The notes beneath the pieces are model-generated. The model ran no database searches, was not told the origin of the DNA, and saw nothing but the letters and a program-made list of their open reading frames with translations. Shown here in pieces: positions 30,144 through 48,907 of a stretch of DNA of 64,000 nucleotides; position 1 is the first letter of the stretch; every line of letters begins with the position of its first letter. The position numbers were made by a program, and so were the translations under genes. The DNA is from Candidatus Aldehydirespirator sp. (lineage in GTDB: Bacteria; Actinomycetota; Acidimicrobiia; Acidimicrobiales; Aldehydirespiratoraceae), in assembly GCA_965203635.1 (NCBI GenBank), contig OZ241903.1:3330918-3394917 (forward strand), in the 5' to 3' direction.

Positions 30144-31054
30144 TCGAAGGCCTCGGTAGCGAGGCGCTCCAGTTGATCGATCAGGAAGTCCATGTGGGCC
30201 TGCACCGGGGAGCTCGGGGTGTGCGACAGCGCCCGGACGGTCGGCGAGGCGATGAGACCCCGCCGGACCAGCGCCCGCTTCTCGATCTGCAAGAACAGCT
30301 CGAAGTCCTGGAGCGAGAAGCTGATGTAGGGCAACAGCGCACCGAACAAGTCGTGAGCCTTCTCTGGCTGTTGGGAGACCGCTGCATCGAACACCGTGTC
30401 GAGCAGGTCGGCGATGGCCACTCCGGGCATGATCCCGTCGATGCCGACGGAGACGCCCTCGAGCATGTAGAGCCCACCCCAGCCCTCAAGGATTCCGATC
30501 CGGCCCGCGGTGGCCGACCGGATGGCGAGCAGCCGGTCGACCATCATCGGATCCTCAAGCTTGACGAACCGAAAATTGTCACAGCGGTCGCAGAGCGCGG
30601 TGGCGAGGGCTGCTCCCATGGTCGGCCCGCCTGGGTTGAAGTCCTGGATCAAGACCGGCAACGGGATGGAGGAAGCGACGGCGGCGCAGTACTCGATGAT
30701 GTCATCCTCCGATGATCCGAACTGCCGGGGAATGGCGAAGGACACCACGTCGACACCCATTTCCGTGTAACGCCGAGCCAGTCCCGACGCCACCCGGGAC
30801 GAGACGTGGTTGGCCTGAGCGATCACCGGAATCCGGCCTGCGTTGACCTTGACGGCAACGGCCACAACCTGATCCCGCTCGGCCTCGGTGAGCTTGTAGA
30901 ACTCGCTTCCGTAAGCGGGCAGGCACATCCCGGCCAGACCCTGCCCCGCGATCCAGTCGACGACTGCGGCCAGCGACTCGACGTCGATCGACTCGTCGGG
31001 GGCGAAGGGCGTCGGGACCACGGGAACCACGCCGCGCAACCGAACCTCCCCCAT
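30131..31054 (-). CDS. DapA/N-acetylneuraminate-lyase-family class I aldolase (candidate 2-keto-3-deoxy-sugar-acid aldolase)
   Basis: VVPVVPTPF..., AYGSEFYKLTEAER, FRFVKLED (Schiff-base Lys context). The ATG at 31054 overlaps the dehydratase stop (TGATG). The N-terminal 320 aa of the 629-aa track ORF is a shadow. Confidence 0.75.
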   Translation of the reverse strand: MGEVRLRGVVPVVPTPFAPDESIDVESLAAVVDWIAGQGLAGMCLPAYGSEFYKLTEAERDQVVAVAVKVNAGRIPVIAQANHVSSRVASGLARRYTEMGVDVVSFAIPRQFGSSEDDIIEYCAAVASSIPLPVLIQDFNPGGPTMGAALATALCDRCDNFRFVKLEDPMMVDRLLAIRSATAGRIGILEGWGGLYMLEGVSVGIDGIMPGVAIADLLDTVFDAAVSQQPEKAHDLFGALLPYISFSLQDFELFLQIEKRALVRRGLIASPTVRALSHTPSSPVQAHMDFLIDQLERLATEAFDQPW

Positions 31055-32220
31055 CAGGCCAACGGCGTGAAACCGTCGAGGGAGAGGGTGGCGCCCAGCC
31101 CCGGATCGGCGCCGATCGACACCTGGCCGCCATCCGGTATAGCTGCGCCGTCGAAATGGGGAGCCTCCTCGACTTCGTCCCATACCGGAACGGGGAAGTA
31201 CTCGACCATGCTCACGGCGGTGTCGCTGGTGGCCAGGTGCAGGGTCGGCAGGCCGTAGGCGTGGGTGTAGACGGGCAGGCCGGCGGCTTGGGCCAGCGCG
31301 CAAACCTTCCTGGCCTCGCTGAAGCCTCCCACCCGCCCAATATCGAACTGGATGATGTCGAGTGCGGAGGCCTCGATGATCTGAGCGAACCCGTAGCGCG
31401 TGGTCTCGTGCTCGCCGGCTGCGATGGGCACGGGTGAGGATCGGCGCAATACCGCATACTCGCGGATCTGGTCGGGCAGCAGGGGCTCCTCCACCCACTT
31501 CATGTCGAAGGGCTCCAGGGCCCGGCACATCCGCAGCGCGTACTCCAGGTCCCAGCCCATATAGGCGTCGGCCATGATGTCGATGTCGTCGCCCACCGCG
31601 CCTCGCAGCATCCGGACCAGCTCGACGTTGCGGCGCAGGCCCGCGAGCCCGTCGGCGGGGCCGTGCAGGAAGCGCATCTTCATGGCCTTGAAGCCCCGCC
31701 GCACGTACTCGGTGGCCTCGGCCAGGAACTCGTCCTCGTTGGTGAAGTGGAGGTGGCTGGCGTAGACGGGAATCACGTCCCGGGCCCGGCCGCCGAGCAG
31801 CTCGAACACGGGTTGGCCGAAGTGCTTGCCGGCCAGGTCCCACAGCGCTATGTCCAGTGCGCTGATGGCGTACAGGGCCGGGCCCTTGCGGCCGTACGGC
31901 ATGGTGCTGCGGAACATCTGATCCCAGAGCAGGCTGCGCTCCAGGGGGTCCGCACCGACGAGGAGCCCGGTCAGGTGGTTCTCGATGATGACGCTGGTCG
32001 CCCGGGCGTAGTCCTCGCACCAGCCGGTGCCCACCAGCCCATCATCGGTCTGGATCTCCACCACGCACATGGCGTCGGCCGGGAACCAGCTCGACAGCGG
32101 ATGGCGGTACTGCGGGTGGATCGCCATGAGCGTCACCAGCCGCAGTTCGTCCTGGCGGGCCGCGAAGTCGCCCCAGAACGACATGTCGATGTGGGTGACC
32201 TTCACTCTCCCTATCCGCAC
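31054..32220 (-). CDS. Enolase-superfamily acid-sugar dehydratase, L-rhamnonate dehydratase-like (paralogue 2)
   Basis: About 55 percent identical by eye to 24308..25483. ADAYMGW / WVEEP / AGEHE / YTHAYG. I chose the GTG at 32220 (RBS GGGGGAG 5 nt upstream). Confidence 0.8.
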   Translation of the reverse strand: MRIGRVKVTHIDMSFWGDFAARQDELRLVTLMAIHPQYRHPLSSWFPADAMCVVEIQTDDGLVGTGWCEDYARATSVIIENHLTGLLVGADPLERSLLWDQMFRSTMPYGRKGPALYAISALDIALWDLAGKHFGQPVFELLGGRARDVIPVYASHLHFTNEDEFLAEATEYVRRGFKAMKMRFLHGPADGLAGLRRNVELVRMLRGAVGDDIDIMADAYMGWDLEYALRMCRALEPFDMKWVEEPLLPDQIREYAVLRRSSPVPIAAGEHETTRYGFAQIIEASALDIIQFDIGRVGGFSEARKVCALAQAAGLPVYTHAYGLPTLHLATSDTAVSMVEYFPVPVWDEVEEAPHFDGAAIPDGGQVSIGADPGLGATLSLDGFTPLA

Positions 32221-32249
32221 GGCCACTCCCCCAGGCCCGTCCGCGCCGG

Positions 32250-33180
32250 CTAGCCGGCCAGCCGGATCTGCGGGCGGCCCGCAAACAGCTGGGGATCGTC
32301 CCGAACCTGCTCGTAGAGCTGCCCGCACGAGCGGATGTCGAGGACCCCGGCGGCGTGGTCGAGCAGCATGCCGATGTGACTGGCGCGTTTGTCGATGCGG
32401 TAGATCGACCACGGGTGGAAAGTGGGCACGTAGGCGAGGAGTCCGGCTCGGGCCGTGTGCTCTATGCCCGGCGCGTAGGCCTCATACACCCCCTGTGCGT
32501 CTGTCGGCATCTTCGTGGGGTAGTCCCATGGCAGTGCCGGCGGCCACGAGACGAGGCCGTGCTGACCGGTCAGGACGTTGTCGTGCCAGGCGTGGGTGGG
32601 GATCTCCAGCAGGTCGGCGCAGCCCTCGAGGTCGTACCAGAAGGGCTGGTGCAGCGGCGCCGGCATGGAGTAGTGCGGCCCGGTTCCGACGCTGCGCATG
32701 TACCCGTAGCCGGCCTCCTGGAGGATCTCGGGAACCCGGGGCTCCCCGATGTAGCCGTTCTCGTAGCCGCCCGGCGTGGTGAAGCCGATGACCTGCCGGC
32801 CGAAGGCGTCCTCGATGACGTTCTTGGAGTCGACGATCTCGTGGCGCAGGCGATGGTCGTCGTGCAGGTAGGCCTTGATGTCGGGATGGGTGTAGGAGTG
32901 GCTGGCGATGTCGAAGATCGGGTGGTCGAGGATCTCGACCAACTCCGCGGTGGCCGCGTCCAGGAGACGGGCGACGATGAAGAACGTGGCCGGCGCGTCC
33001 CGCTCGAGGTGGGCCTCGGCCACCGCACGCACGCCCGCGAGGCACTCGCTCAGGCGATACCCCTCGTAGCTGACCACGTCGTCGTAGTTGTCGCCGGTGT
33101 GCTCGGTGTGATCGGAGTCCCACCAGGCGTAGATCGCCTCGACGTCGTATCCCGCCACATAGGCCGCCATGTCCGCTCCT
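32250..33180 (-). CDS. Polysaccharide deacetylase (CE4-like) family protein
   Basis: ATFFIVARL and DIASHSYTHPD motifs. ATG at 33180 with RBS GAGGAG, starting 1 nt after the sulfatase stop. Confidence 0.7.
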
Positions 33181-33181
33181 C

Positions 33182-34627
33182 TCAGTCCGAGATTGTTGGC
33201 CGGGCCGAGGCGGCCTCGTCGCGCAGCTCGTCGAAGCGTTGTACGAGCCGGTCCAGCGTCTCCTGGCAGCGGGGGTCGTCGATCACGTTGTCGGCCTCGA
33301 GGGGGTCCGACTCGAGGTCGTAGAGCTCCTCGTAGCGGTTGCCGCCCCGGATCCGCCGGCCGATGCCGCCCTTCACCGCGTTCCCCTCGCGCTGCTGTTC
33401 CTCGTCGGAAGCCGGCAGCTCCACATACTTGATGTACTTCCACCGGGTGGTGCGCAACCCCTCGCTCTTGGGGATCAGGGGATGCTCGAACAGGTGCTCG
33501 CAGTAGAAGTCCTGGCGCCAGCCGCCGGGCTCGCCCGCCAGCAGCGGGAGCAGGCTCCGGCCCTGCACCGCCTCCGGGACACCGATCCCGGCCAGCTCGA
33601 TGATGGTGGGCGAGATGTCGATGTTCAGCGCCATCTCAGCGGCGCGGCTGCCCTGCCGGGACTCGTCCAGGCGGGGGTCCATCACCACTAGGGGGACCCT
33701 GATGGAGTCCTCGTACAGCAGCCAGCAGTCGCTCAGGCCTCGCTCGCCGAAGAACATGCCGTTGTCGCTGGTGAAGATGATGACGGTGGAGTCGGCCGTA
33801 CCGAGTGCGTCCAGCTCGTCCAGGACCCGGCCCAGAACGACGTCAATGCCGCTGACCATGCGGTAGTAGCCCTTCATGTTCTCCTGGAACAGGTCGGGGG
33901 TGCCGAACCTCCTCAGCCAGCGCTCCCGGTTCTCGCTCTGCTTGATGAAGTCGGGCTGTTTCTCGATGAAGGCGGGATCGGCGGTAGGGGGAACACCGAT
34001 GACGGCGTCGTGGTAGAGGTGGTCGACGCTGGAGGGCCAGATGTACTGCTGGGGGTGGTCATCCTGGCAGTGGGGGGCGTTGAAGCTGACCGAAAGGCAG
34101 AACGGGCGCCCGTCATCGGCGCTCTGCCACTGCCGGAGGAAGTCTAGGATCTTGTCGCCGGTCACGTCGGTGAGGTGGCGCAGGCTGCCGTCGGGCTGGC
34201 GCTCGAAGTAGAAGTCGGGACCCCAGTGCTCGAAGTCGTCAAAGTGGTCGAACATCGAGTCGAGGACGGCCTCCTCGTCCTCGACGTTCATGTAGCCGTC
34301 GCTCTCGATTCCGAACTTGCCGATGAAGCCGGTGTTGTAGCCCGATGCCTTCAGCAGGGCCGGGTAGGTGATCGGGCCGAGCGAGGCCCTGAACGGCGGG
34401 GTCCGGAAGTCGAACTGGTGGCTGCGCCGGTAGAGGCCGGTCAGGAAGCTGGCCCGGCTCGCGCCGCAAATGGGCGTGGTGACGAAGGAGTTGTCGAACA
34501 TCACCCCTCGGGCAGCCAGATCGTCCATATAGGGGGTGGAGATGATGTCGTTGCCGGCCGCGCCCATCGATGTCCAGTGCTGATTGTCGGTCAGCAGGAA
34601 GAGGATGTTCGGACGTCGGCTTTCCAC
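33182..34627 (-). CDS. Type I (S1) sulfatase with a C-x-A-x-R active-site motif; no signal peptide
   Basis: PNILFLLTDNQ metal site; TPICGASRASFLTG (codons at 34454..34468). The N-terminus starts directly with the catalytic domain. Confidence 0.85.
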   Translation of the reverse strand: MESRRPNILFLLTDNQHWTSMGAAGNDIISTPYMDDLAARGVMFDNSFVTTPICGASRASFLTGLYRRSHQFDFRTPPFRASLGPITYPALLKASGYNTGFIGKFGIESDGYMNVEDEEAVLDSMFDHFDDFEHWGPDFYFERQPDGSLRHLTDVTGDKILDFLRQWQSADDGRPFCLSVSFNAPHCQDDHPQQYIWPSSVDHLYHDAVIGVPPTADPAFIEKQPDFIKQSENRERWLRRFGTPDLFQENMKGYYRMVSGIDVVLGRVLDELDALGTADSTVIIFTSDNGMFFGERGLSDCWLLYEDSIRVPLVVMDPRLDESRQGSRAAEMALNIDISPTIIELAGIGVPEAVQGRSLLPLLAGEPGGWRQDFYCEHLFEHPLIPKSEGLRTTRWKYIKYVELPASDEEQQREGNAVKGGIGRRIRGGNRYEELYDLESDPLEADNVIDDPRCQETLDRLVQRFDELRDEAASARPTISD

Positions 34628-34722
34628 TGCTGGCTCCGTCCTCAGCGGCCGGGGGGTCTAGGTTAGCTTCGCACCCGTTCACGACCCTGAAGCAGGGGTC
34701 AAGGAGACGAACCGAAGCCACG

Positions 34723-37700
34723 ATGACCGATCGCGAGCTGCTCCCCATTCCCGACGGCCTGGTGCTCCTGACCTTCGACGATGCCAACCACTCCGACCTC
34801 GCCAGCGTCGCTCCCCTGCTGCTGCGCCACGGCTTCGGGGCCACCTTCTTCATCAGCGAGGGGCTCGGGTTCACCGAGGGCAACCCCGGCGAGTTCATGA
34901 CCTGGGACGAGATCCGGCAGCTGCACGATCTCGGGTTCGAGATCGGCAACCACACCAGGAGCCACCTCGACATCACCGAACTCACCGCGGACGAGGTCGC
35001 CGAAGAGATCGCCCACATCCAGCGGCGTTGCGACGAGCACGGGATCCCGGCCCCGACCTCGTTCTGCTATCCGGGGTTCCACCACAGCCCCGAGGTAGTC
35101 CGGGTGCTCGCCTCCGAGGGGTTCGCCTTCGCCCGCCGAGGCGTGTACCCGGAGTACTCCGACACCGGCCGGGGGGCGCGAGGCCCCGCCTATGACCCCC
35201 GTGCCGACCACCCGCTGCTGATACCGACCACCGGCTACGCCGGGCCGGAGTGGGCCCTTGACGACCTCGCATGGGCCGTCGACCACGCGCGGGACGGCCG
35301 GATCGCATCGATCTGCTTCCATGGCGTTCCGCTGAGGCGCTACCACTGGGTAAGCACCGAACTCGAGGTGTTCGCCGCCTACATGCAATACCTGGCCGAC
35401 GCCGGCTGCACCGTGATCGCCTGCCGTGACCTGGCCGACTACGTGGATCCGGCCTGGGCCGGGACCGATCCCTACGCGGCCATCAACGGACGTACCCGGT
35501 TCGCCGCGATCGACGCCAAGTGCGAGTACCGGACCGACCCGCTCGGCATCGACGAGCCCGCCCCCCGATTCAGCTGGAGGATCCAGGCCACCGACCGGTC
35601 GATGAGCCGGTCGACCTACCGGACCGTCGCCCGTGATCAGCACCAGTCGGCCTACCGGGTGCTGGTGAGCTCCAGCCGGGCGGGTCTCGACGCCGGAGTG
35701 GGCGACCAGTGGGATTCCGGCAGGATCGCCTCCGGCTCCGGCAACGGGATCGTCTACGCCGGAAACCCGCTGCGCAGCGGCCAGCAGTGCTGGTGGAAGG
35801 TCCAGACATGGGACCGCGACGACTGCCGGGGCACCGACAGCCCGGTCGCGACGTTCGAGATGGGCCTGCTGGAGGCCGGTGACTGGGAGGCGTCCTGGAT
35901 CTCCGCGGCGGCCGGAGTCTCCTCTCCCCTGCTGCGCGCCGAGACCGTGCTGGATGACCGGCCGGTCCGGGCCAGGTGCTACGTGACGGGGCTGGGTTTC
36001 TACGAGCTGTTCATCAACGGTCAGCGGGTGGGCGACCGGGTGCTCGACCCGGCCACCACCTACTACCACAACGACCAGCCACAGGAGATGGGCTCGCGGG
36101 TCCTCTACGCCACCTACGACGTGACCCGCCACCTGCGGGCCGGCCCGAACGCGGTCGGGGTGATGCTCGGCAACGGCTGGTACAGCGCGGAGGACGACAT
36201 ACCTCCCTCCCCCAGCCATCGCGAGCCATACGGCGACCGGCCGGTGGCCCTGCTGCGACTCGACATCGAGCTCGCCGGCGGCGAGACCGTCCACCTGGTC
36301 AGCGACCCGTCCTGGCGGGCCTCGGCCGGGCCGATCACCTACAACGACAACAGCCACGGCGAGGTCTACGACGCTCGCCTGGAGCAGGCCGGCTGGTGTG
36401 AGCCCGGCTTCGACGACAGCCATTGGGAACCGGCCGAAGCGACCGCAGGTCCTTCGGGCCGGCTGGAGGCCCAGCCGCTGCCGCCGGTGCGGGTGGTTCG
36501 AACCATCGCACCCACCCGGTCGTTCGATGTGGGCGATGGAGCGACGATCTACGACTTCGGCCAGAACATGACCGGGTGGACGCGGCTGACGGTGAGCGGA
36601 CCGGCCGGGGCCCGGGTGACGATCCGCCACGGCCACGACATCCACCCCGACGGCAGCCTCGACAACCGGGCCAACATGTACTCCTACGCCGACGACGTCG
36701 AGTTCCACACCGACGCGGTGGCCCGGGGCGAGCAGGGCTTCGAGCCGCTCGACGAGGACTACGACCACCGGGCCCGCCAGACCGACACCTACGTGCTCGC
36801 CGGCCGGGACTCCGAGGCCTGGGAACCCCGTTTCACGCTGCACGGCTTCCGCTACGCGGAGGTCGCCTGCACCGGCGGCGAGGTCGCCGTCGAGAGCATC
36901 GAGGCCCGCCACGCCCGCACCACCCTGGCCGAGAGCGAGGGCTTCGAGTGCTCGGACCCGCAGCTCAACCAGATCCACAGCAACACCACATGGACGTTCG
37001 CGTGCTCGCTGCAGGGATACCCGCAGGACGCCGCCGACCGGTCCGAGCGGGTCGGCTGGCTCGGCGACCCGGTCGCCGGTGACTTCAGCTTCACCTTCGA
37101 CGACGTCTTGTTCTGGTCGAAGTGGCTCGAGGACTTCGCCGACTCCCAGCTGCCTTCGGGCGACCTTCCGGTGATCTCGCCGCTGCACTGGCGCCGGACC
37201 TACGACTGCTACCTGTGGTACCCGGTGTGGAAGAGCTCCTACGCCATCGTGGCCTGGGACGTCTACCTCGAGTCGGGGGATCCCCGAGTCCTGGAGCGCC
37301 ACTACGACCGCATCGAGAACCTGGTGGGATTCCTTGGCGGCCACGCCGACGACCACCTGCTCGCCGGCGGCCTCGGCGACCATATGGAGCCCCAGCCCGA
37401 CGGCACATCGGCGTTCGCGCCGGTCCACACCCCCGCCGGGCTCACATCCACTGCCATCTATTTCCGGGACGTGCAGATCCTGGCCTGGGCCGCGGCCGTG
37501 CTGGGAGACGAGCGCCGCGCCGGGAAGTACTCGCGGCTCGCGGCGGATATCCGGGACGCGTTCAACCAGCGGTACTTCGACGCCGAGACCGCCAACTACG
37601 CCACGGGCAGTCAGGGCTCGAACGCCATCCCGCTGGCTCTGGGGCTCGTGCCCACCGGCTACGAGGACGCGGTGCTGGCCAACATCGTCTCCGACATCGA

Positions 37701-38316
37701 GCTCAACCACGACGGGCATCTGTCTACCGGGATGCTGGGCACCGACGCGCTGGCCCGGGTGTTGCCCGCCGGGGGCCGGGCCGATGTGTTCTTCACCGTG
37801 GCGACCCGGACGACTTTCCCGAGTTGGGGCGAGCAGATCGCCAAGGGCGCCACCACTCTGTGGGAAGCCTGGGAGGGAGAGACCAACCCGCAACTCAGCT
37901 ACAACATGAAGCTGTTCGGCAGCATCCAGAAGTTCTTCTTCCGGGACCTGGCCGGCATCCGCCGGGGCTCTCCCGGCTACGCCACCTTCGCGGTCGAGCC
38001 CCAGGTCGTGGGCGGCCTGACCCACGCCCGGGCCGAGGTGAGCACGATACGGGGCGCCGTCTCGGCCGGCTGGCGGCGCGACAACGGCACCTTCGAGCTC
38101 GATGTGGCCGTCCCGCCCAACACCCGGGCCACAGTCCGCGTCCCCAAGCTCGGAGATGCTGATCCGGTGATCTCCGAGGGCGGGGTGACGGTGTGGAGCC
38201 GCGGCGAGCCCATCGGCAACCGTCTCGGCATCAACGGAGCCCATCAGACCGACGAGGCCGTGGTGTTCGATGTCGGCTCGGGCGACTACTCGTTCGCGAA
38301 AGGCAGAGAAGCATGA
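34723..38316 (+). CDS. Bifunctional CE4 deacetylase-like domain (aa ~1-255) fused to GH78 alpha-L-rhamnosidase (aa ~258-1197)
   Basis: N-terminal LLTFDDANHSD and EIGNHTRSH (CE4). Then KCEYRTDPLGIDEPAPRFSWRI, WWKVQTWD and a long (alpha/alpha)6-type C-terminal region typical of bacterial GH78. No signal peptide. Confidence 0.8.
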   Translation: MTDRELLPIPDGLVLLTFDDANHSDLASVAPLLLRHGFGATFFISEGLGFTEGNPGEFMTWDEIRQLHDLGFEIGNHTRSHLDITELTADEVAEEIAHIQRRCDEHGIPAPTSFCYPGFHHSPEVVRVLASEGFAFARRGVYPEYSDTGRGARGPAYDPRADHPLLIPTTGYAGPEWALDDLAWAVDHARDGRIASICFHGVPLRRYHWVSTELEVFAAYMQYLADAGCTVIACRDLADYVDPAWAGTDPYAAINGRTRFAAIDAKCEYRTDPLGIDEPAPRFSWRIQATDRSMSRSTYRTVARDQHQSAYRVLVSSSRAGLDAGVGDQWDSGRIASGSGNGIVYAGNPLRSGQQCWWKVQTWDRDDCRGTDSPVATFEMGLLEAGDWEASWISAAAGVSSPLLRAETVLDDRPVRARCYVTGLGFYELFINGQRVGDRVLDPATTYYHNDQPQEMGSRVLYATYDVTRHLRAGPNAVGVMLGNGWYSAEDDIPPSPSHREPYGDRPVALLRLDIELAGGETVHLVSDPSWRASAGPITYNDNSHGEVYDARLEQAGWCEPGFDDSHWEPAEATAGPSGRLEAQPLPPVRVVRTIAPTRSFDVGDGATIYDFGQNMTGWTRLTVSGPAGARVTIRHGHDIHPDGSLDNRANMYSYADDVEFHTDAVARGEQGFEPLDEDYDHRARQTDTYVLAGRDSEAWEPRFTLHGFRYAEVACTGGEVAVESIEARHARTTLAESEGFECSDPQLNQIHSNTTWTFACSLQGYPQDAADRSERVGWLGDPVAGDFSFTFDDVLFWSKWLEDFADSQLPSGDLPVISPLHWRRTYDCYLWYPVWKSSYAIVAWDVYLESGDPRVLERHYDRIENLVGFLGGHADDHLLAGGLGDHMEPQPDGTSAFAPVHTPAGLTSTAIYFRDVQILAWAAAVLGDERRAGKYSRLAADIRDAFNQRYFDAETANYATGSQGSNAIPLALGLVPTGYEDAVLANIVSDIELNHDGHLSTGMLGTDALARVLPAGGRADVFFTVATRTTFPSWGEQIAKGATTLWEAWEGETNPQLSYNMKLFGSIQKFFFRDLAGIRRGSPGYATFAVEPQVVGGLTHARAEVSTIRGAVSAGWRRDNGTFELDVAVPPNTRATVRVPKLGDADPVISEGGVTVWSRGEPIGNRLGINGAHQTDEAVVFDVGSGDYSFAKGREA

Positions 38317-39707
38317 CAGGCCCCAACATCGTCCTGTTCATCACCGACCAGCAGACCCGGGCCACGATCAGCGCCTACGGCAACGACCGCACCCACACCC
38401 CGCACATGGACGAGTTGGCCGCGGGCGGCGTCGCCTTCGAGAGGTCGTACTGCTCGTCGCCGCTGTGCAGCCCGGGCCGGGCCAGCATCGTCACCGGCCA
38501 GATGCCCCACACCACCGGAGTGGATGTCAACGATCTGCCGGTACGCAATGGCATCGTCAACCTCGGGGAGATCTTCTCCGGTGCCGGCTACGAGACCGTC
38601 TGGGCGGGCAAGTGGAACCTGCCCGAGTCGTTCCCGACCGAGCCCGACGCTATACCCGGATTCGGGAACCTCGAATGGCAACGGCGGCCATACCCGTCGA
38701 TAGAGCAGATACTCTCGGGCGACTTCAGTCAGGTCGGCGAGCAGGCGCCGTACCGCGACCTCGGCGCTTCGATGGACGCCGACATCACCGACGCGGCCGT
38801 GCGGTACCTGGCCGGAGCCCCGCGGGAGCCCTTCCTGCTGGCCGTGTCGCTCTACAACCCCCACGACATCTGCTTCTGGATCATCGACCGGGACCACGAC
38901 ATGCTGCCAGCGGTGCCGCCGGACGCCTTGCTGCCCGATCTGCCGGACAACTTCGACGCGGTCGCGAACGAGCCCGAGTTCGTGCGGTGGATGCGCAACC
39001 AGAAGGCGGTGATCCCCGATTATGGCTGGAATGAGCTGCGTTGGACCCACGACTGGGACGAGCGGCACTGGCGGCGGTACCTGTACGTCTACTACCGGCT
39101 CGTCGAGATGGTCGACATGCAGATCGGCCGGGTGCTGGGCGCCGTCTCCGACGCCGGGATCCAGGACTCCACGCTGGTGGCATTGACCAGCGACCACGGG
39201 GAGGGGGTGGCCGCCCACCGCTGGGCCACCAAGCAGATGCTCTACGAGGAGCCGGTCACGGTCCCTCTCGTGCTGAGATGGCCGGGGATGATCCCCGCGG
39301 GGCGGTTCGACCGGTCCCACATCGCCTCCGGCGTCGACATCGTCCCGACGCTGTGCGAGTACGCGGGCGTGGAGGAACCCGAGGGCCTGGCCGGCGAATC
39401 CCTGCGGCCCGTGATCGACGATCCCACCCTGGGCGGTCGTGACTTCGTCGTGTCGGAGCTCCAGCCCGACCGCTTCAGGATGGAGCTCAAGGGCCGGATG
39501 CTGCGGACGCGCCGGTACAAGTACGTGGCTTTCACCGCAGGCGCCGATCCCGAGATGCTGTTCGATCTGGAGACGGATCCGCTGGAGACGCTCAACCTGG
39601 CCAGCTCGGCCGGTCACGCCGACATCCTGGCCGAGCACCGCGCCCTGCTTGAAATGTGGACTAGGCGAACCGACGACCCATTCGAAGTGGGCTCGGCTGT
39701 GATCTGA
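38313..39707 (+). CDS. Type I (S1) sulfatase, canonical C-x-P-x-R motif; no signal peptide
   Basis: PNIVLFITDQQ; SPLCSPGRASIVTG (38466..38480). The ATG overlaps the rhamnosidase stop (ATGA). Confidence 0.85.
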   Translation: MTGPNIVLFITDQQTRATISAYGNDRTHTPHMDELAAGGVAFERSYCSSPLCSPGRASIVTGQMPHTTGVDVNDLPVRNGIVNLGEIFSGAGYETVWAGKWNLPESFPTEPDAIPGFGNLEWQRRPYPSIEQILSGDFSQVGEQAPYRDLGASMDADITDAAVRYLAGAPREPFLLAVSLYNPHDICFWIIDRDHDMLPAVPPDALLPDLPDNFDAVANEPEFVRWMRNQKAVIPDYGWNELRWTHDWDERHWRRYLYVYYRLVEMVDMQIGRVLGAVSDAGIQDSTLVALTSDHGEGVAAHRWATKQMLYEEPVTVPLVLRWPGMIPAGRFDRSHIASGVDIVPTLCEYAGVEEPEGLAGESLRPVIDDPTLGGRDFVVSELQPDRFRMELKGRMLRTRRYKYVAFTAGADPEMLFDLETDPLETLNLASSAGHADILAEHRALLEMWTRRTDDPFEVGSAVI

Positions 39708-39709: not shown

Positions 39710-39736
39710 GCCCGGCCTCGGACCGAGCGGCCGGGC
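39710..39736 (+). terminator. GC-rich hairpin (GCCCGGCC-N11-GGCCGGGC) directly after the sulfatase stop
   Basis: Perfect 8-bp stem 3 nt after the TGA. There is no U-tract, so it could be an I-shaped terminator or a processing/attenuation hairpin. Confidence 0.3.
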
Positions 39737-39795
39737 CCGGCAACGGACACGCCAGCCGGTGCCAAGTAGGGTCCGATCCTGTGACCGTCGGCAGC

Positions 39796-40617
39796 ATGAC
39801 CGAGGAGGAGCGCTACCTTTTTGACCTCCAGGGCTACTTGGTGGTCGAGGATGTGCTCGAGCCCGCCGAGGTCCAGCAGATCAATGAGCTGCTCGACTCC
39901 CGAGACCTGTGGAACCAGCCCCGGGGCCATGACGCTCCCCTCGACTATGAGACCTTCGACGAGCTCTTCTTCCACGTCAGCCCACCCCACTGCTGGGGCA
40001 AGCCCCTCCTCGACCTGCTGGGGCACCCGCGGATCGCCGGATATCTGCAGGAGATCCTCGGCCCGCGGTACCGCTACGACCACGGCCAGGCCATCTTCAT
40101 GCGCAAGGGAAGCGGCTCGCTGGAGCTGCACGGCGGGGGCTCCCCTTGGGACCCGATCGGCTTCTACCGGGTGGTGGACGGCACGATCCATTGCGGCCTC
40201 ACCGTGGTGTCCTACGCGCTGTGCGACGTCGGCCCCGAGGACGGCGGCTTCGTGGTCGTCCCCGGCAGCCACAAGAGTGGCTTCCCGCGCCCCAAGGGGC
40301 TTCTGAACCCCGAGGACTGCCGGCCCATGCTGCGACACGTCCCGCACGGGGCCGGCTCGGCCATCATCTTCACCGAGGCCCTCACCCACGGAACCCTGCC
40401 CTGGACTGCAGAACACGAGCGTCGAGCCGTGCTGTACCGATACACGCCCGGCCACATGGCCTTCGTCGGCCGCTACCGGCAGGACGGTGCCGAGCAACCC
40501 GACTGGGCCTACCCGCAGCCGTCCGACGCTGCGGACGCCGACCTCCCCCCTGAACTGCGCCGCCTGCTGGAGTTCCCCTACGTCTCGGAGCGAGCCGACA
40601 CCCTCGGCAGGGACTGA
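39796..40617 (+). CDS. PhyH-like Fe(II)/2OG oxygenase-fold protein with H-G-G in place of HxD/E (PhyH-4)
   Basis: LELHGGGSPWDP (His codon 40129..40131), VVVPGSHKSG, FTEALTHGTLPW, ERRAVLYRY. The start could be the GTG at 39781. Confidence 0.75.
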   Translation: MTEEERYLFDLQGYLVVEDVLEPAEVQQINELLDSRDLWNQPRGHDAPLDYETFDELFFHVSPPHCWGKPLLDLLGHPRIAGYLQEILGPRYRYDHGQAIFMRKGSGSLELHGGGSPWDPIGFYRVVDGTIHCGLTVVSYALCDVGPEDGGFVVVPGSHKSGFPRPKGLLNPEDCRPMLRHVPHGAGSAIIFTEALTHGTLPWTAEHERRAVLYRYTPGHMAFVGRYRQDGAEQPDWAYPQPSDAADADLPPELRRLLEFPYVSERADTLGRD

Positions 40618-40624
40618 AGGCGCG

Positions 40625-41458
40625 ATGGCGACCGGCGCAATGACCGAGGAGGAGCGCTACCTGTTCGACCTCCAGGGATTCCTGGTCATCGAGAACGTGC
40701 TGGGAGCCGAGGAACTCGAGGAACTCAACGGCCTGCTCGACGACTACGACATCTGGAACCGGTCCCGGGGGGAGGATCTGTCCTTCGACTTCTGGCAGAA
40801 CGACGAGCACCAGGTCTCGGCCGGTCCCCTGCACATGTGGGACAAGCCGTTCCGGCGGCTAATTGCCCACCAGCGCATCGTGCCCTATCTGGCCGAGGTG
40901 CTGAGCCCCTCGTTCCGCTACGACCACGGCCACGCCATGGTCATGAGCAAAGGAGGCCGGCCGTTCGGGCTGCACGGCGGCGGCACACCTTGGGATCCGG
41001 CCATCGCCTACGAGGTGTCGCGGGGGCGCATTCATTGCGGGCTTGTGGTGGTGCACTACGCGCTATGCGATGTGGGTGCGGACGACGGCGGATTCTGCGC
41101 TCTGCCCGGCAGCCACAAGAGTAACTTCGCCTGCCCGGACAGCTTCAGGCCCATCACCGATCCGGGGCCCTGGGTCAAGCCGGTGCCGCTGCGGGCCGGC
41201 TCAGTCGTCATGTTCACCGAGGCCCTCACCCACGGCACCCTGCCCTGGACCGCGGAGCACGAGCGCCGGGCGCTGTTCTACCGATACATGCCGGGCCACA
41301 TGGCCTTCGTCGGGCGCTACCGCGAGGACGGCCGGGAGCAACCCGGTGGGGCCTATCCCCAGCCGTTCCACACGGACCCCGACGATTGGACGCCATTGGA
41401 GCGCCGGATGTTGGAGCCGCCCTATGCATGGGAACGGCCTGACACCATCACGGAGTAG
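40625..41458 (+). CDS. PhyH-like Fe(II)/2OG oxygenase-fold protein with H-G-G in place of HxD/E (PhyH-5), tandem paralogue
   Basis: FGLHGGGTPWDP (His codon 40973..40975), CALPGSHKSN, FTEALTHGTLPW, ERRALFYRY. About 55-60 percent identity by eye to PhyH-4. Confidence 0.75.
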   Translation: MATGAMTEEERYLFDLQGFLVIENVLGAEELEELNGLLDDYDIWNRSRGEDLSFDFWQNDEHQVSAGPLHMWDKPFRRLIAHQRIVPYLAEVLSPSFRYDHGHAMVMSKGGRPFGLHGGGTPWDPAIAYEVSRGRIHCGLVVVHYALCDVGADDGGFCALPGSHKSNFACPDSFRPITDPGPWVKPVPLRAGSVVMFTEALTHGTLPWTAEHERRALFYRYMPGHMAFVGRYREDGREQPGGAYPQPFHTDPDDWTPLERRMLEPPYAWERPDTITE

Positions 41459-41481: not shown

Positions 41482-42495
41482 TCAGGCGACTTGCCAGGTG
41501 GGGCGGGAGTGCAGCAGCTTGTGGAGGTCGCCCGGTCCGGCCTTGGACTGGGAGGCGGCTATCTGGGACGTCACGGCCGAGCCGTACTCCGAGCGCTCGA
41601 CGGCCCGGAAGACCCCGATCGGGGTGGGCACGTCGTTGGTGTTGGCCAGACGGCTCAGCGCGAACGCCACCGACGGGTCGGGATCGGCCTCGTCGTGCAC
41701 CACGAGCGCGTCCACGCCGACATCGGCCACGTTCACGACCCGGGCCCGGCCGCCGTCCATCACCACGCCGAACTCGTCGTCGGCCCCGAAGCGCACCGGC
41801 TCGCCGTGGCACAGATCGATCAGCATCGAATCGCGGGCGTCGCGCTTGGTGATGGCCGCGAAGGCGCCGTCGTTGAACACGTTGCAGTTCTGGAAGACCT
41901 CGACGAACGCCGCGCCCGGATGGTTGTGGGCCCGCCGGAACATCTCCTGCATGTGGCCCCGGTCCATGTCATGGGTGCGGGCCACGAACGACGCCTCGGC
42001 CCCCAGCGCCAGAGAGATCGCGTTGAAGGGCTGCTCCACCGAGCCATGGGGGGTGGACTTGGTGACCTTGCCCCGCTCGCTGGTGGGCGAGTACTGGCCC
42101 TTGGTCAGCCCGTAGATCTGGTTGTTGAACAGCAGGATGTTCAGATTCACGTTGCGGCGCAGAGCGTGGATCAGGTGGTTGCCCCCGATCGACATCATGT
42201 CGCCGTCGCCGCCCACCACCCAGACGTGCAGGTCGCCCCGGGCCATGGCCAGGCCGGTGGCCACAGCCGGTGACCGCCCGTGGATGGCGTGGAGGCCGTA
42301 GGTGTTCATGTAGTACGGGAACCGGGCCGCGCAGCCGATCCCCGACACGAAGACCGTGTCCTCGCGGCGCACGCCCAGTTCGGGCATCAGCAGCTGCACC
42401 GCGGTGAGGATCGAATAGTCGCCGCAGCCCGGGCACCAGCGGACCTCCTGGTCGGTGGTCCAGTCCTTGCGGGTGGTCACGGGCACGTCGGTCAT
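41482..42495 (-). CDS. korB: 2-oxoglutarate/2-oxoacid:ferredoxin oxidoreductase, beta subunit
   Basis: RWCPGCGDYSILTAV and VVGGDGDMMSIGGNHL (TPP-binding) motifs. Confidence 0.9.
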   Translation of the reverse strand: MTDVPVTTRKDWTTDQEVRWCPGCGDYSILTAVQLLMPELGVRREDTVFVSGIGCAARFPYYMNTYGLHAIHGRSPAVATGLAMARGDLHVWVVGGDGDMMSIGGNHLIHALRRNVNLNILLFNNQIYGLTKGQYSPTSERGKVTKSTPHGSVEQPFNAISLALGAEASFVARTHDMDRGHMQEMFRRAHNHPGAAFVEVFQNCNVFNDGAFAAITKRDARDSMLIDLCHGEPVRFGADDEFGVVMDGGRARVVNVADVGVDALVVHDEADPDPSVAFALSRLANTNDVPTPIGVFRAVERSEYGSAVTSQIAASQSKAGPGDLHKLLHSRPTWQVA

Positions 42496-42558
42496 CGCTT
42501 CTCTCCGGTCATCGCCGCTCTCCCGTCATCGCCTCTCCCCGGTCATCGCTTCTCTCCC
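42491..42558 (-). repeat. Four tandem 17-nt repeats (GTCATCGCYKCTCYCCS on the plus strand) spanning the korA stop and korB start
   Basis: Units start at 42491, 42508, 42525 and 42542. On the coding strand each unit carries GGAGAG + N4 + ATGA. Confidence 0.9.
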
Positions 42559-44429: not shown

Positions 44430-44550
44430 TGATGCTCCTTTGCACCCGCTGTGCGAGGGCGGACGGCACGACCCACGGTTGAGACCCACCATCTCCGGCC
44501 CGCAGGTGCAACCCTAGCCGGTATACCGTTTGAGGCCACGGCTTTATTCC

Positions 44551-45913: not shown

Positions 45914-46783
45914 ATGAGGCTCACCGACGACCAGCTCCGGGAATTCGACGAGACGGGCCTGCTGTTCCTGCCCGACGTCTTCTCGGCCGCGGAAGTGGCG
46001 CTGCTGCGCCGCGAGGCCGACACCTGCTTCGCCTTGCAGAGAGAGGAGGTGTGGCGCGAGGACAACGGCGCACCCCGCAGCGCCTTCGCCGCCCACCGCT
46101 ACAACGAGGCGTACCGGCGCATCGCCGCGCACCCCCGGCTCCTCGAGCCGGTGATGCAGATCCTCGACGGCCGGGTGTACATGCACCAGTTCAAGATCAA
46201 CGCGAAGGCGGCCTTCGACGGCGCGGTCTGGCAGTGGCACCAGGACTACGGCACATGGCAGCGCGACGACGACATGCCCGAGCCGCGGGCCATGAACATC
46301 GCGGTCTTCCTCGACGACGTGACTGCGGCCAACGGCCCGCTGCTCCTCATTCCGGGCAGCCACAAGCTGGGCGTGCTCGAGGCCGGCCACGACCTGGAGA
46401 CAACCACCTACCCGCTCTGGTGCCTGGAGCGTGAGACCGTCAGCGCACTGGCCGAGCGGGGCGGCGTGGCCGCGCCGACCGGCAAGGCCGGCTGCGTGCT
46501 GATGTTCCACTCGAACATGGTCCACGCCAGCCCGCCCAACATCAGCCCCTTGAGCCGGGTGATCGTCTACCTGAGCCTCTGCGAGGTCTCGAACCACATC
46601 CGCAGGTTCCAGCGGGCCGAGTGGTGGGCCCTGCGCGACTTCGCGCCGATCGAGCCGTTGGCCGACGACTGCCTTGAGGAACTGGTCCGACTCCAGAGCT
46701 CGACTCCCGATCAGCCCGCACGAGACCACAGTCTGGACCCACCGCATGAACCTCTTCCGGCTGCTGCAGGAGCGCGTCGCTGA
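45914..46783 (+). CDS. PhyH-family Fe(II)/2OG dioxygenase, ectoine-hydroxylase-like (PhyH-6)
   Basis: WQWHQDYGTWQRDDDMPEP resembles the EctD signature region. NGPLLLIPGSHK, PTGKAGCVLMFHSNMVHAS. Confidence 0.75.
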   Translation: MRLTDDQLREFDETGLLFLPDVFSAAEVALLRREADTCFALQREEVWREDNGAPRSAFAAHRYNEAYRRIAAHPRLLEPVMQILDGRVYMHQFKINAKAAFDGAVWQWHQDYGTWQRDDDMPEPRAMNIAVFLDDVTAANGPLLLIPGSHKLGVLEAGHDLETTTYPLWCLERETVSALAERGGVAAPTGKAGCVLMFHSNMVHASPPNISPLSRVIVYLSLCEVSNHIRRFQRAEWWALRDFAPIEPLADDCLEELVRLQSSTPDQPARDHSLDPPHEPLPAAAGARR

Positions 46784-48818: not shown

Positions 48819-48862
48819 AGGCGCGGAGCCTACCTGCGGCGTGAAATCGTGCCCCGGAATGG

Positions 48863-48897
48863 CAGAAGGCCCCGGATCTGGTCGACGGGGCCTTCTG
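48863..48897 (-). terminator. Perfect 12-bp stem hairpin (CAGAAGGCCCCG-N11-CGGGGCCTTCTG) downstream of 5S rRNA; candidate rrn terminator
   Basis: Located 10 nt after the 5S 3' end on the minus strand. No strong U-tract. Confidence 0.5.
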
Positions 48898-48907
48898 ATC
48901 GGCGAAA

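What the first reader, a model, noticed from the sequence alone, without database searches (positions are those of the whole stretch)
39796..41458. Tandem PhyH-like paralogues whose first iron-ligand motif is H-G-G (2-His, halogenase-like) instead of H-x-D/E
- **Seen:** PhyH-4 reads LELHGGGSPWDP (His codon 40129-40131) and PhyH-5 reads FGLHGGGTPWDP (His codon 40973-40975). This is exactly where the four other PhyH proteins in the window read WHQD / HIHQD / WHAD.
- **Alignment support:** the downstream landmarks align by eye with similar spacing. These are (V/L)PGSHKS about 44 residues later, the distal His in FTEALTHGTLPW, and Arg in ERRA(V/L)(L/F)YRY.
- **Established:** replacing the facial-triad carboxylate with Gly/Ala is the defining feature of Fe(II)/2OG halogenases (SyrB2, CytC3, WelO5, BesD types). 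SyrB2-type halogenases belong to the PhyH fold family.
- **Inference:** these could be anion-binding (halide or other) radical-transfer enzymes. Alternatively they could be oxygenases in which a substrate carboxylate or sulfate, or the Asp seven residues downstream (HGGGSPWD), completes the metal site.
- **Context:** they sit directly after a GH78 rhamnosidase and a sulfatase, behind a hairpin. That location is atypical for natural-product halogenases.
Basis: partly seen in the sequence, partly recalled or inferred. Interest (0 to 1): 0.72.

Follow-up and report, generated by a model that had tools for sequence, protein, structure and literature searches.

The report
HygX-type iron oxygenase gene pair
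Two neighbouring genes encode iron/2-oxoglutarate oxygenases whose missing acidic iron ligand has moved to another position, as in the antibiotic enzyme HygX, so they are most likely ordinary oxygenases working on a sugar and not halogenases.

Summary
Two tandem PhyH-family genes (39796-40617 and 40622-41458, 58% identical) carry H-G-G where canonical PhyH proteins carry H-x-D. Four paralogues in the same window have the canonical form.

The 2-His, halogenase-like reading is not supported.
- Both proteins, and 222 of 270 relatives tabulated, pair H-x-G with a Glu four residues before the distal His (FT-E-ALT-H).
- H-x-G...E-x3-H is the relocated-carboxylate triad described for HygX, the hygromycin B orthoester-forming Fe(II)/2OG oxygenase.
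- HygX is the best sequence match (profile E 2e-19, hhalign 99.3%) and the best fold match (top 15 Foldseek hits, E 1e-17).
- SyrB2 matches only marginally, and no halogenase is among the top 50 folds.
- The canonical paralogues have Ser or Gly at the Glu position, so the carboxylate moved rather than vanished.
- The Asp in HGGGSPWD is not conserved.

The pair is kept under purifying selection in 13 Acidimicrobiia genomes, at least some from sponges. There it sits beside sulfatases, a GH78 rhamnosidase, deacetylase-type genes and a rhamnonate-dehydratase-like gene. In other phyla, relatives sit next to acid-sugar dehydratases and sugar dehydrogenases.

Most likely these are Fe/2OG oxygenases with three protein ligands acting on a sugar-derived substrate. 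The substrate is unknown.

The parts
39796..40617 (+). PhyH-4: Fe(II)/2OG oxygenase of the PhyH family with a HygX-type H-x-G...E-x3-H motif (273 aa)
   Evidence: ORF. Pfam PF05721, E 2.6e-17. Best PDB sequence and fold match is HygX. AF2 model pLDDT 87.5, pTM 0.89. dN/dS 0.11-0.36 against seven of the 13 orthologous loci.
40622..41458 (+). PhyH-5: tandem paralogue with the same motif set (278 aa; alternative start at 40637)
   Evidence: ORF. Pfam PF05721, E 5.3e-16. 58% identical to PhyH-4. Closer than PhyH-4 to orthologues in other phyla: 62-65% against 54-57%. dN/dS 0.09-0.22.
40129..40137 (+). PhyH-4 H112-G113-G114: proximal His ligand, with Gly at the usual Asp/Glu position
   Evidence: Codons CAC GGC GGG. 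H112 and G114 invariant. Aligned to HygX H102-G103-G104 and to the canonical H-x-D.
40375..40389 (+). PhyH-4 E194-A-L-T-H198: inferred relocated carboxylate ligand plus the distal His
   Evidence: Codons GAG ... CAC. Both invariant. Aligned to HygX E202...H206. The canonical paralogues have Ser or Gly in the Glu column.
40420..40425 (+). PhyH-4 R209-R210: R209 lies 11 residues after the distal His, the spacing of the 2OG C5-carboxylate Arg in PhyH enzymes
   Evidence: Invariant in A1. R209 is invariant across all seven sequences of A2, including HygX and the canonical paralogues. The role is inferred from general knowledge of the family.
40973..40981 (+). PhyH-5 H118-G119-G120
   Evidence: Codons CAC GGC GGC; same columns as in PhyH-4.
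41219..41233 (+). PhyH-5 E200-A-L-T-H204
   Evidence: Codons GAG ... CAC; same columns as in PhyH-4.
41264..41269 (+). PhyH-5 R215-R216
   Evidence: same columns as R209-R210 of PhyH-4.
39745..39772 (+). Promoter-like element upstream of PhyH-4: GGACAC, 16 nt, TAGGGT
   Evidence: The GTA(G/T)G(G/T)TC core is invariant or nearly so in 10 orthologous upstream regions. The upstream ACAC-containing box is less conserved. The simple sigma-70 scan did not call it. Its function is inferred.
39710..39736 (+). All-GC 8-bp hairpin just after the sulfatase stop codon
   Evidence: No U tract. Not conserved in orthologous loci.
38310..39707 (+). Upstream S1 sulfatase (CSPGR motif, no signal peptide visible)
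   Evidence: Pfam Sulfatase 7e-44 plus SGSH_C. Syntenic in all 13 Acidimicrobiia loci.
34720..38316 (+). GH78 alpha-L-rhamnosidase fused to an N-terminal CE4 deacetylase domain
   Evidence: Pfam Bac_rhamnosid6H 9e-74, Bac_rhamnosid_N, Polysacc_deac_1. Present in 11 of the 13 syntenic loci.
31054..34627 (-). Divergent unit: enolase-superfamily acid-sugar dehydratase (best match L-rhamnonate dehydratase, below its cut-off), a CE4-like deacetylase and a second sulfatase
   Evidence: Synteny.

Best explanation
PhyH-4 and PhyH-5 are cytoplasmic Fe(II)/2-oxoglutarate oxygenases of the PhyH fold. Their iron is held by three protein ligands in the HygX arrangement.
- The ligands are the proximal His (H112 in PhyH-4, H118 in PhyH-5), the distal His (H198/H204) and a Glu four residues before the distal His (E194/E200).
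- The Glu replaces the usual H-x-D/E carboxylate, whose position is taken by Gly.
- 2OG would bind bidentately, anchored by Arg209/215.
- Three protein ligands plus 2OG leave one site for O2, and no site for a halide.
- The expected chemistry is therefore ferryl-based C-H oxidation: hydroxylation or a follow-on reaction such as dealkylation, desulfation, deamination or cyclisation.
- The Gly-rich loop after the His is modelled with low confidence. Together with the cleared carboxylate position, it probably opens the site for a bulky polar substrate.

The substrate is most likely a sugar, sugar acid or oligosaccharide handled by the surrounding catabolic genes: imported sulfated or acetylated rhamnose-containing glycan, then rhamnose, then rhamnonate.

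What is shown:
- the motifs and their conservation;
- HygX as the closest homologue and fold;
- the synteny;
- purifying selection.

What is inferred:
- that E194 binds the iron (by homology to HygX);
- the chemistry;
- the substrate class (from neighbouring genes only).

The confidence of 0.8 applies to the core claim: a relocated-carboxylate oxygenase, not a halogenase. For a sugar-derived substrate my confidence is about 0.55.
For: **Family**
- Pfam PhyH, matched full length.

**Motif**
- H112, G114, E194, H198, R209 and R210 are invariant in 54 diverse homologues.
- H-x-G plus E-x3-H is found in 118 of the 120 nearest homologues.
- It is found in 222 of 270 sequences reaching down to 50%-identity cluster representatives.

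**Relocation signature**
- The four canonical paralogues in the window have Asp at the 114 column and Ser or Gly at the 194 column. PhyH-4, PhyH-5 and HygX have Gly and Glu.

**HygX**
- HygX is the best PDB hit by single sequence (1e-10) and by profile (2.4e-19).
- hhalign gives 99.3% probability and pairs LHGGG with LHGGN and TEALTHGT with NEALMHGT.
- An AF2 model (pLDDT 87.5) has HygX chains as its top 15 Foldseek matches, E 1e-17, TM about 0.7.
- HygX is described as having an H-X-G ... E-X3-H triad with a relocated acid. It has been shown in vitro to form the hygromycin B orthoester (PMC13374393).

**Halogenases are distant**
- SyrB2 scores only E 0.009, over 55 C-terminal residues.
- No halogenase is among the top 50 fold matches.

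**Both genes are maintained**
- All seven key residues are kept in both paralogues in 13 species-level genomes.
- dN/dS is 0.09-0.36 in the seven loci tested.

**Context**
- The block sulfatase / GH78-CE4 / sulfatase / PhyH-4 / PhyH-5 is conserved in Acidimicrobiia, with the rhamnonate-dehydratase-like and CE4 genes nearby.
- In 84 loci from other phyla, the commonest neighbours within 4 kb are enolase-superfamily dehydratases (22 loci; 9 lie within 500 bp), GFO/IDH/MocA sugar dehydrogenases (15) and sulfatases (7).
- Among the adjacent dehydratases, those scanned from Poribacteria score above the galactonate dehydratase cut-off.
- No NRPS, carrier-protein or other natural-product context was seen in the neighbourhoods examined.
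Against: - I could not obtain model coordinates, so the geometry of E194 relative to H112 and H198 was not measured. Ligation rests on homology to HygX at only 23-30% identity.
- I could not read the primary HygX structure paper. The triad description comes from a review.
- HygX Lys137, said to fill the gap left by the missing acid, is Val in PhyH-4. That column is Val or Ala in 221 of 270 relatives. The second sphere therefore differs.
- The loop after H-G-G is poorly modelled (pLDDT 67 for residues 111-120).
- The link to a substrate is weak:
  - Synteny with sulfatases and GH78 is confined to one clade.
  - The neighbour counts have no background control.
  - A conserved promoter-like element and a hairpin suggest the pair may be transcribed separately from the sulfatase.
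- No member of this clade has been characterised (one search found no literature).
Confidence: 0.8

Rival explanations
1. True 2-His site. Only the two His bind iron, and the vacated position binds chloride, bromide or another anion. The enzymes would then be radical halogenases or other anion-transfer enzymes.
For: - Gly occupies the carboxylate position, as in SyrB2-type halogenases, which share the PhyH fold.
- HygX Lys137, which fills the gap in HygX, is not conserved here.
- A few relatives have no acid at either position, so 2-His sites may exist within this clade.
Against: - The Glu four residues before the distal His is invariant and aligns with the HygX ligand.
- HygX is by far the closest sequence and fold. 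SyrB2 is marginal and no halogenase is in the top 50 folds.
- Three protein ligands plus bidentate 2OG leave no site for a halide. This follows from established coordination chemistry.
- The gene context is sugar catabolism, without carrier proteins or biosynthetic genes.
Confidence: 0.04
2. The triad is completed by Asp119 of H-G-G-G-S-P-W-D, seven residues after the His, or by a carboxylate or sulfate of the substrate. Glu194 is not involved.
For: - Asp119 is present in both window proteins and is the most frequent residue in its column, at 105 of 270.
- The loop that carries it is flexible.
Against: - The column varies: E 26, N 22, Q 19, S 18, R 13, K 11 and others. A metal ligand would not vary like this while H112, E194 and H198 stay fixed.
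- The same column is Asp in the canonical H-x-D paralogues and in HygX. It is therefore a general PhyH feature and not a substitute for the triad acid.
Confidence: 0.04
3. One or both proteins are non-catalytic. For example, PhyH-4 could be an auxiliary subunit of a PhyH-4/PhyH-5 heterodimer, as TlxI is for TlxJ.
For: - The tandem pair is fixed in 13 of 13 Acidimicrobiia loci, against 1 of 84 loci elsewhere.
- A 79%-identical PhyH-4 orthologue carries H112R on three independent contigs. It overlaps the start of an intact PhyH-5 gene by 4 nt.
- A related sequence, P0018, has both H112R and E194A.
- TlxI/TlxJ is a solved heterodimer of PhyH-like oxygenases with one inactive partner (PMC12141560), and it is among the fold matches.
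Against: - In the window and in all 13 genome loci, both paralogues keep every catalytic residue.
- Both show similar purifying selection.
- No interaction test was possible.
Confidence: 0.12

Closest known systems
HygX (Streptomyces hygroscopicus; PDB 4XC9, 4XCA, 4XCB, 4ZPI), the Fe(II)/2OG oxygenase that forms the orthoester of hygromycin B
   Same: - PhyH fold.
- H-G-G at the H-x-D position.
- Glu in an E-A-L-x-H-G-T motif four residues before the distal His.
- Arg 11 residues after that His, and the G-S-H-K motif.
- It acts on a sugar C-H bond.
- Best sequence, profile and fold match.
   Different: - Only 23-30% identical.
- HygX has a 10-residue insertion after H-G-G.
- Lys137 of HygX is Val here.
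- HygX sits in an aminoglycoside biosynthetic cluster. The window proteins sit in a catabolic sulfatase / rhamnosidase / sugar-acid locus of uncultured Acidimicrobiia, as a tandem pair.
Fe(II)/2OG halogenases of the PhyH fold (SyrB2, CytC3, CurA Hal; more broadly WelO5 and BesD)
   Same: - Small residue (Gly or Ala) at the facial-triad carboxylate position.
- The SyrB2 type shares the PhyH fold.
   Different: - Halogenases have no protein carboxylate ligand, and halide takes its site (own knowledge). Here an invariant Glu is available, as in HygX.
- SyrB2 matches the family profile only at E 0.009, over 55 residues.
- No halogenase is among the top 50 fold hits.
- There is no carrier-protein or biosynthetic context.
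Canonical PhyH-family hydroxylases (human PHYH 2A1X, ectoine hydroxylase EctD 3EMR/4MHR, and the four H-x-D paralogues in this window)
   Same: - Same Pfam family and fold.
- Same proximal and distal His, the Arg at His+11, and the PGSH motif.
   Different: They have Asp at the H-x-D position and Ser or Gly four residues before the distal His. PhyH-4/5 have the reverse.
AspH (human aspartate/asparagine beta-hydroxylase), a 2OG hydroxylase that departs from the His/His/carboxylate triad
   Same: It shows that a missing triad carboxylate does not by itself make a halogenase. It is flagged as an exception to the triad in the abstract of PMC13168262. That it has only two His ligands is my own knowledge.
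   Different: - Different subfamily and domain architecture.
- AspH truly lacks a third protein ligand, whereas PhyH-4/5 have a candidate Glu.
TlxI/TlxJ (PDB 7VBQ), a heterodimer of two PhyH-like Fe/2OG oxygenase paralogues
   Same: - Paired paralogous PhyH-fold proteins encoded together.
- Among the fold and profile matches.
- One partner can be catalytically dead (PMC12141560). Compare the H112R variant of PhyH-4 orthologues.
   Different: - Fungal meroterpenoid biosynthesis.
- Canonical triad.
- Both window paralogues keep all catalytic residues.
- Dimerisation was not tested here.

Membership tests
Pfam PF05721 PhyH (Fe(II)/2OG oxygenases, double-stranded beta-helix fold) | Match to the family HMM above the gathering score, over the full length | tested here: met
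   64.3 and 60.0 bits against a cut-off of 22; profile positions 1-213 of 213.
Pfam PF05721 PhyH (Fe(II)/2OG oxygenases, double-stranded beta-helix fold) | Predicted fold matches solved PhyH-family structures | tested here: met
   AF2 pLDDT 87.5. Foldseek hits are HygX, SptF, AndA, TlxIJ, SnoN and EvdO1, all with probability 1.00.
Pfam PF05721 PhyH (Fe(II)/2OG oxygenases, double-stranded beta-helix fold) | Canonical H-x-D/E...H facial triad | tested here: not met
   Gly at the D/E position in both proteins. This is a variant within the family, not grounds for excluding them from it.
Pfam PF05721 PhyH (Fe(II)/2OG oxygenases, double-stranded beta-helix fold) | Arg about 11 residues after the distal His, for the 2OG C5 carboxylate | tested here: met
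   R209 and R215; invariant in A1 and A2. The role itself is inferred.
HygX-type oxygenases (H-X-G ... E-X3-H relocated-carboxylate triad) | H-x-G at the position of H-x-D/E | tested here: met
   H112-G-G114 aligned to HygX H102-G-G104; hhalign 99.3%.
HygX-type oxygenases (H-X-G ... E-X3-H relocated-carboxylate triad) | Glu four residues before the distal His (E-x3-H) | tested here: met
   E194...H198 aligned to HygX E202...H206. Invariant in A1. The motif is as described in PMC13374393.
HygX-type oxygenases (H-X-G ... E-X3-H relocated-carboxylate triad) | The Glu actually coordinates the metal | not testable with these tools
HygX-type oxygenases (H-X-G ... E-X3-H relocated-carboxylate triad) | Lys137 filling the space left by the missing acid | tested here: not met
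   The aligned residue is Val in PhyH-4. The column is V 171, A 50 and K 4 out of 270.
HygX-type oxygenases (H-X-G ... E-X3-H relocated-carboxylate triad) | Orthosomycin or aminoglycoside biosynthetic cluster; oxidative cyclisation to an orthoester | tested here: not met
   The context is catabolic: sulfatases, GH78, CE4 and acid-sugar dehydratases. The reaction itself cannot be tested here.
Fe(II)/2OG halogenases (SyrB2, CytC3, WelO5 and BesD types) | Gly or Ala in place of the triad carboxylate | tested here: met
   G114 and G120.
Fe(II)/2OG halogenases (SyrB2, CytC3, WelO5 and BesD types) | No protein carboxylate ligand, so that halide occupies the site | tested here: not met
   An invariant Glu lies at the position homologous to the HygX ligand. 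This rests on homology, not on a measured metal site.
Fe(II)/2OG halogenases (SyrB2, CytC3, WelO5 and BesD types) | Closest relatives are halogenases | tested here: not met
   SyrB2 scores E 0.009 over 55 residues, against HygX at 2.4e-19. No halogenase is in the top 50 fold matches.
Fe(II)/2OG halogenases (SyrB2, CytC3, WelO5 and BesD types) | Halide-dependent C-H halogenation | not testable with these tools
   This needs enzyme assays.

The most novel reading that the evidence does not exclude
PhyH-4/5 would be the first examples seen of HygX-type relocated-carboxylate oxygenases used in catabolism. They would belong to a large uncharacterised clade: 362 clusters at 50% identity with E <= 1e-30.

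The clade is frequent in lineages reported as sponge symbionts (own knowledge): Poribacteria, Latescibacterota, Caldilineaceae, Dehalococcoidia and Acidimicrobiia.

Its members would oxidise a C-H bond of a sugar, sugar acid or oligosaccharide. Candidate reactions are oxidative removal of a sulfate, O-methyl or amino group, or hydroxylation of a 6-deoxy sugar. The products would feed acid-sugar dehydratase pathways.

In Acidimicrobiia the two paralogues might work as a heterodimer.
Probability: 0.3. Interest if true: 0.55.

Novelty: new member of a known kind. Interest (0 to 1): 0.3.

Why it matters
- **Annotation.** H-x-G at the first triad motif of a 2OG oxygenase is often read as a halogenase signature. 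This case shows the call is unsafe unless the position four residues before the distal His is also checked.
- **Breadth.** The HygX arrangement has been described for one antibiotic enzyme. Here it turns out to be the rule in a sizeable family of environmental proteins.
- **An open question.** Sponge-symbiont genomes are known to carry large, unexplained expansions of PhyH genes (PMC3909097). This window holds six PhyH genes. Linking one subfamily to sulfatase, rhamnosidase and acid-sugar dehydratase genes gives a concrete, testable lead for what some of them do.

Tried and rejected
- **Halogenase reading.** Rejected on the conserved Glu, on HygX being the nearest relative, and on gene context.
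- **Asp119 as the third ligand.** Rejected because the column varies, and because it is also Asp in the canonical H-x-D paralogues.
- **Primary HygX papers.** I tried to read McCulloch 2015 (DOI and PMC4577193) and Starbird 2018 (PMC7231510). None is held, so I relied on the review PMC13374393.
- **Literature linking PhyH enzymes to sulfatases or polysaccharide use.** Nothing found.
- **NCBIfam.** No specific model matches either protein.
- **The hairpin as a conserved terminator or regulatory structure.** Its fold is no better than shuffled sequence, it has no U tract, and it is not conserved.
- **Sulfatase linkage as a family-wide feature.** It holds in 13 of 13 Acidimicrobiia loci. In other phyla a sulfatase is within 10 kb in only 17 of 84 loci and within 4 kb in 7. 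I treat it as clade-specific.
- **KorAB downstream.** These 2-oxoglutarate:ferredoxin oxidoreductase genes are convergent and separated by insertions in several genomes. I do not count them as part of the system.
- **A further large database search seeded with HygX.** Not run. The profile and fold results already placed HygX as the nearest solved relative.
Full report
**1. What is there**

The region holds two co-directional ORFs with the codon bias of real genes in this 68% GC genome (GC3 0.86-0.89).
- PhyH-4 is 39796-40617, 273 aa.
- PhyH-5 is 40622-41458, 278 aa. A second ATG at 40637 would give an N-terminus matching PhyH-4.

Both match Pfam PF05721 (PhyH) over the whole model. They are 58% identical to each other.

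I aligned the pair with the four canonical PhyH paralogues of the window (23357-24265, 27608-28501, 29352-30143, 45914-46783; Pfam). His112 falls in the column of the canonical H-x-D His, and Gly114 falls in the column of the Asp.

**2. The carboxylate has moved, not vanished**

In an alignment of 54 diverse homologues the invariant residues include H112, G114, E194, H198, R209 and R210, plus P-G-S-H-K.

E194 sits four residues before the distal His, in F-T-E-A-L-T-H-G-T.
- Of the 120 closest database homologues, 118 carry both H-G-G and E-x3-H.
- I then added the 150 best representatives of 50%-identity clusters from a full profile search. That search found 5041 proteins at E <= 1e-3, 1762 at <= 1e-10 and 362 at <= 1e-30.
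- In the combined set, 222 of 270 sequences have H / G / E / H at the four columns.
- About 20 more keep the Glu with Ala, Ser, Pro or another residue at the 114 column.
- Most of the rest are fragments.

The four canonical paralogues show the opposite pattern. They have Asp at column 114 and Ser or Gly at column 194. That reciprocal pattern is what a ligand relocation looks like.

Its column is also Asp in the canonical H-x-D paralogues. It is not the missing ligand.

**3. The known precedent is HygX**

HygX is the best solved relative by every measure.
- Sequence: HygX (4XC9, 4XCA, 4XCB, 4ZPI) scores E 1.2e-10 with the single protein and 2.4e-19 with the family profile. EctD is next at 4e-11. 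SyrB2 reaches only 0.009, over 55 C-terminal residues.
- Profile alignment: hhalign of the family against HygX gives 99.3% probability. It pairs L-H-G-G-G with L-H-G-G-N, so H112 matches H102 and G114 matches G104. It pairs T-E-A-L-T-H-G-T with N-E-A-L-M-H-G-T, so E194 matches E202 and H198 matches H206. A 10-residue HygX insertion follows H-G-G.
- Fold: an AlphaFold2 model (pLDDT 87.5, pTM 0.89) has HygX chains as its top 15 Foldseek matches (E about 1e-17, TM about 0.7). SptF, AndA, TlxIJ, SnoN and EvdO1 follow. No halogenase is in the top 50.

A 2026 review states that HygX has an H-X-G ... [quoted passage not shown] It also states that HygX was shown in vitro to convert hygromycin C to hygromycin B by orthoester formation (PMC13374393).

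**4. Mechanism**

The following is inferred. With His, Glu and His from the protein and bidentate 2OG anchored by R209, one site is left for O2. R209 lies 11 residues after the distal His and is invariant even across the canonical paralogues and HygX. This is the normal oxygenase count, and it leaves no room for a halide.

I expect ferryl-mediated C-H abstraction, followed by rebound or by a substrate-directed outcome.

Two differences from HygX matter.
- HygX Lys137, which the review says fills the gap left by the absent acid, is Val here. That column is Val or Ala in 221 of 270 relatives.
- The Gly-rich loop after the His is shorter and modelled with low confidence (pLDDT 67 for residues 111-120).

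What occupies the vacated space is unknown. A polar group of the substrate is a reasonable guess.

**5. Organism and context**

The nearest loci are from uncultured Acidimicrobiia. They come from Acidimicrobiaceae bins named SB06xx and from Candidatus Aldehydirespirator. That these are sponge-associated is my own reading of the isolate names and accession series, not a tool result.

Thirteen species-level genomes share the same block:
- an enolase-superfamily dehydratase, whose best match is L-rhamnonate dehydratase, below its cut-off;
- a CE4-like deacetylase;
- a sulfatase;
- a GH78 rhamnosidase with an N-terminal CE4 domain;
- a second sulfatase;
- PhyH-4 and PhyH-5.

Not every locus has every gene. 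Sulfatase is present in 13 of 13 loci, GH78 in 11, and CE4 and the dehydratase in 10 each.

Both paralogues keep H, G, G, E, H, R and R in all 13 loci. They show dN/dS of 0.09-0.36 in the seven loci tested, so both are functional genes.

The rest of the window encodes sugar ABC transporters, further enolase-superfamily dehydratases, amidohydrolase-type lactonases, SDRs and a GFO/IDH/MocA dehydrogenase. That set fits non-phosphorylative deoxy-sugar catabolism.

Outside Acidimicrobiia the family is widespread. The list is dominated by Poribacteria, Latescibacterota, Caldilineaceae and Dehalococcoidia, with cyanobacteria and some Streptomyces as well.

In 84 such loci:
- The gene is single in 83.
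- The commonest neighbours within 4 kb are enolase-superfamily dehydratases (22 loci), GFO/IDH/MocA dehydrogenases (15), a HEAT-repeat protein (12), canonical PhyH (9), sulfatase (7), NAD epimerase (6) and Zn-dependent dehydrogenase (6).
- A separate tblastn probe found a dehydratase within 500 bp in 9 loci and within 2 kb in 16.
- The two adjacent Poribacteria dehydratases I scanned score above the galactonate dehydratase cut-off.

These counts have no background control, so I treat them as suggestive only. Nothing in the neighbourhoods I examined looks like natural-product biosynthesis.

My commitment is that the enzymes oxidise a sugar-derived molecule. About 0.55 of my confidence goes to a sugar, sugar acid or oligosaccharide substrate. 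The exact reaction is unknown.

**6. Transcription**

The 88-nt spacer after the sulfatase holds an 8-bp all-GC hairpin (39710-39736).
- It has no U tract.
- It folds no better than shuffled sequence.
- It is absent from orthologous spacers.

What is conserved is GGACAC, then 16 nt, then TAGGGT at 39745-39772. The core GTA(G/T)G(G/T)TC is invariant or nearly so in ten loci. This looks like an actinobacterial promoter, so the pair may have its own promoter.

**7. Comparison and novelty**

The pair works like HygX at the metal site, and HygX is its closest solved relative. It shares the derived H-x-G/E-x3-H character.

It is not a HygX orthologue.
- Identity is 23-30%.
- Lys137 is absent.
- The context is catabolic.

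It is not a halogenase. It meets the first defining feature, a small residue at the acid position. It fails the decisive one, which is the absence of any protein carboxylate ligand. That failure rests on homology.

I rate it a new member of a known kind. The known kind is represented by a single characterised enzyme, and this clade is large and unstudied. That is the main residual interest.

**8. Limits**
- I could not access model coordinates to measure ligand geometry.
- I could not read the primary HygX structure paper.
- No experiment or docking bears on the substrate.

Noticed in passing
window 23357-24265, 27608-28501, 29352-30143, 45914-46783 (all +), plus the pair at 39796-41458: There are six PhyH-family genes in 64 kb. 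Four have the canonical H-x-D and two have the HygX-type motif. This recalls the unexplained PhyH expansion reported for the sponge symbiont Poribacteria (PMC3909097). The protein from 45914-46783 resembles ectoine hydroxylase but scores far below its cut-off.
   Followed up: partly
L108 3599-4426 (also L109 and L110); protein P0009. Related protein P0018.: A 79%-identical orthologue of PhyH-4 has Arg in place of the proximal His (K-L-R-G-G-G). It is seen on three independent metagenome contigs. It overlaps the start of an intact PhyH-5-type gene by 4 nt. P0018 has both H112R and E194A. This suggests PhyH-4 can become a non-catalytic partner, as TlxI is for TlxJ.
   Followed up: partly
proteins P0132, P0133, P0146, P0147, P0159, P0182, P0191, P0239, P0262, P0264: A minority of relatives have H-x-(G/S/T/N) and also Gly or Ser at the E-x3-H Glu column, so no acid at either position. 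Several are 490-580 aa two-domain proteins. These, and not the window proteins, are the candidates for genuine 2-His sites in this clade. Alignment error has not been excluded.
   Followed up: partly
window 39745-39772: A conserved promoter-like element, GGACAC, 16 nt, TAGGGT, lies 23 nt upstream of the PhyH-4 ATG. Its core GTA(G/T)G(G/T)TC is invariant or nearly so in ten orthologous loci. The generic sigma-70 scan missed it.
   Followed up: partly
window 39710-39736: An all-GC 8-bp hairpin with an 11-nt loop lies immediately after the sulfatase stop codon. It has no U tract, its fold is not better than shuffles, and it is not conserved in orthologous spacers.
   Followed up: yes
window 34720-38316 (+): The GH78 alpha-L-rhamnosidase carries an N-terminal polysaccharide deacetylase (CE4) domain. 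A separate CE4-like gene lies at 32250-33170 (-). Some orthologous loci match only from about residue 300 onward, so the fusion may not be universal.
   Followed up: no
window 33182-34627 (-) and 38310-39707 (+): Both S1 sulfatases show the Cys-type formylglycine motif (C-G-A-S-R and C-S-P-G-R) and have no obvious signal peptide. Desulfation would therefore be cytoplasmic, after ABC import. I did not look for a maturation enzyme.
   Followed up: no
window 41482-44492 (-): 2-oxoacid:ferredoxin oxidoreductase beta and alpha subunits (KorB/KorA type) lie convergent to PhyH-5. They remain nearby in 10 of 13 syntenic loci, with insertions of several kb in some. Any link to 2OG supply for the six oxygenases is speculation.
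   Followed up: no
window 48907-53940 (-): A complete rRNA operon: 5S at 48907-49023, 23S at 49112-52200 and 16S at 52422-53940. It explains the low-GC stretch. The 5' end of the mechanical ORF 48102-49019 overlaps the 5S gene and is probably over-extended.
   Followed up: yes
L019/L020 882-2120, 8001-8828, 10517-11317; L024 4290-5156 and 8001-8822: In Latescibacteria UBA6620 and in another uncultured genome, the HygX-type gene sits among further PhyH genes. The neighbours include an enolase-superfamily gene, a BNR_2 protein and GFO/IDH/MocA, with a sulfatase 7 kb away in L024.
   Followed up: no
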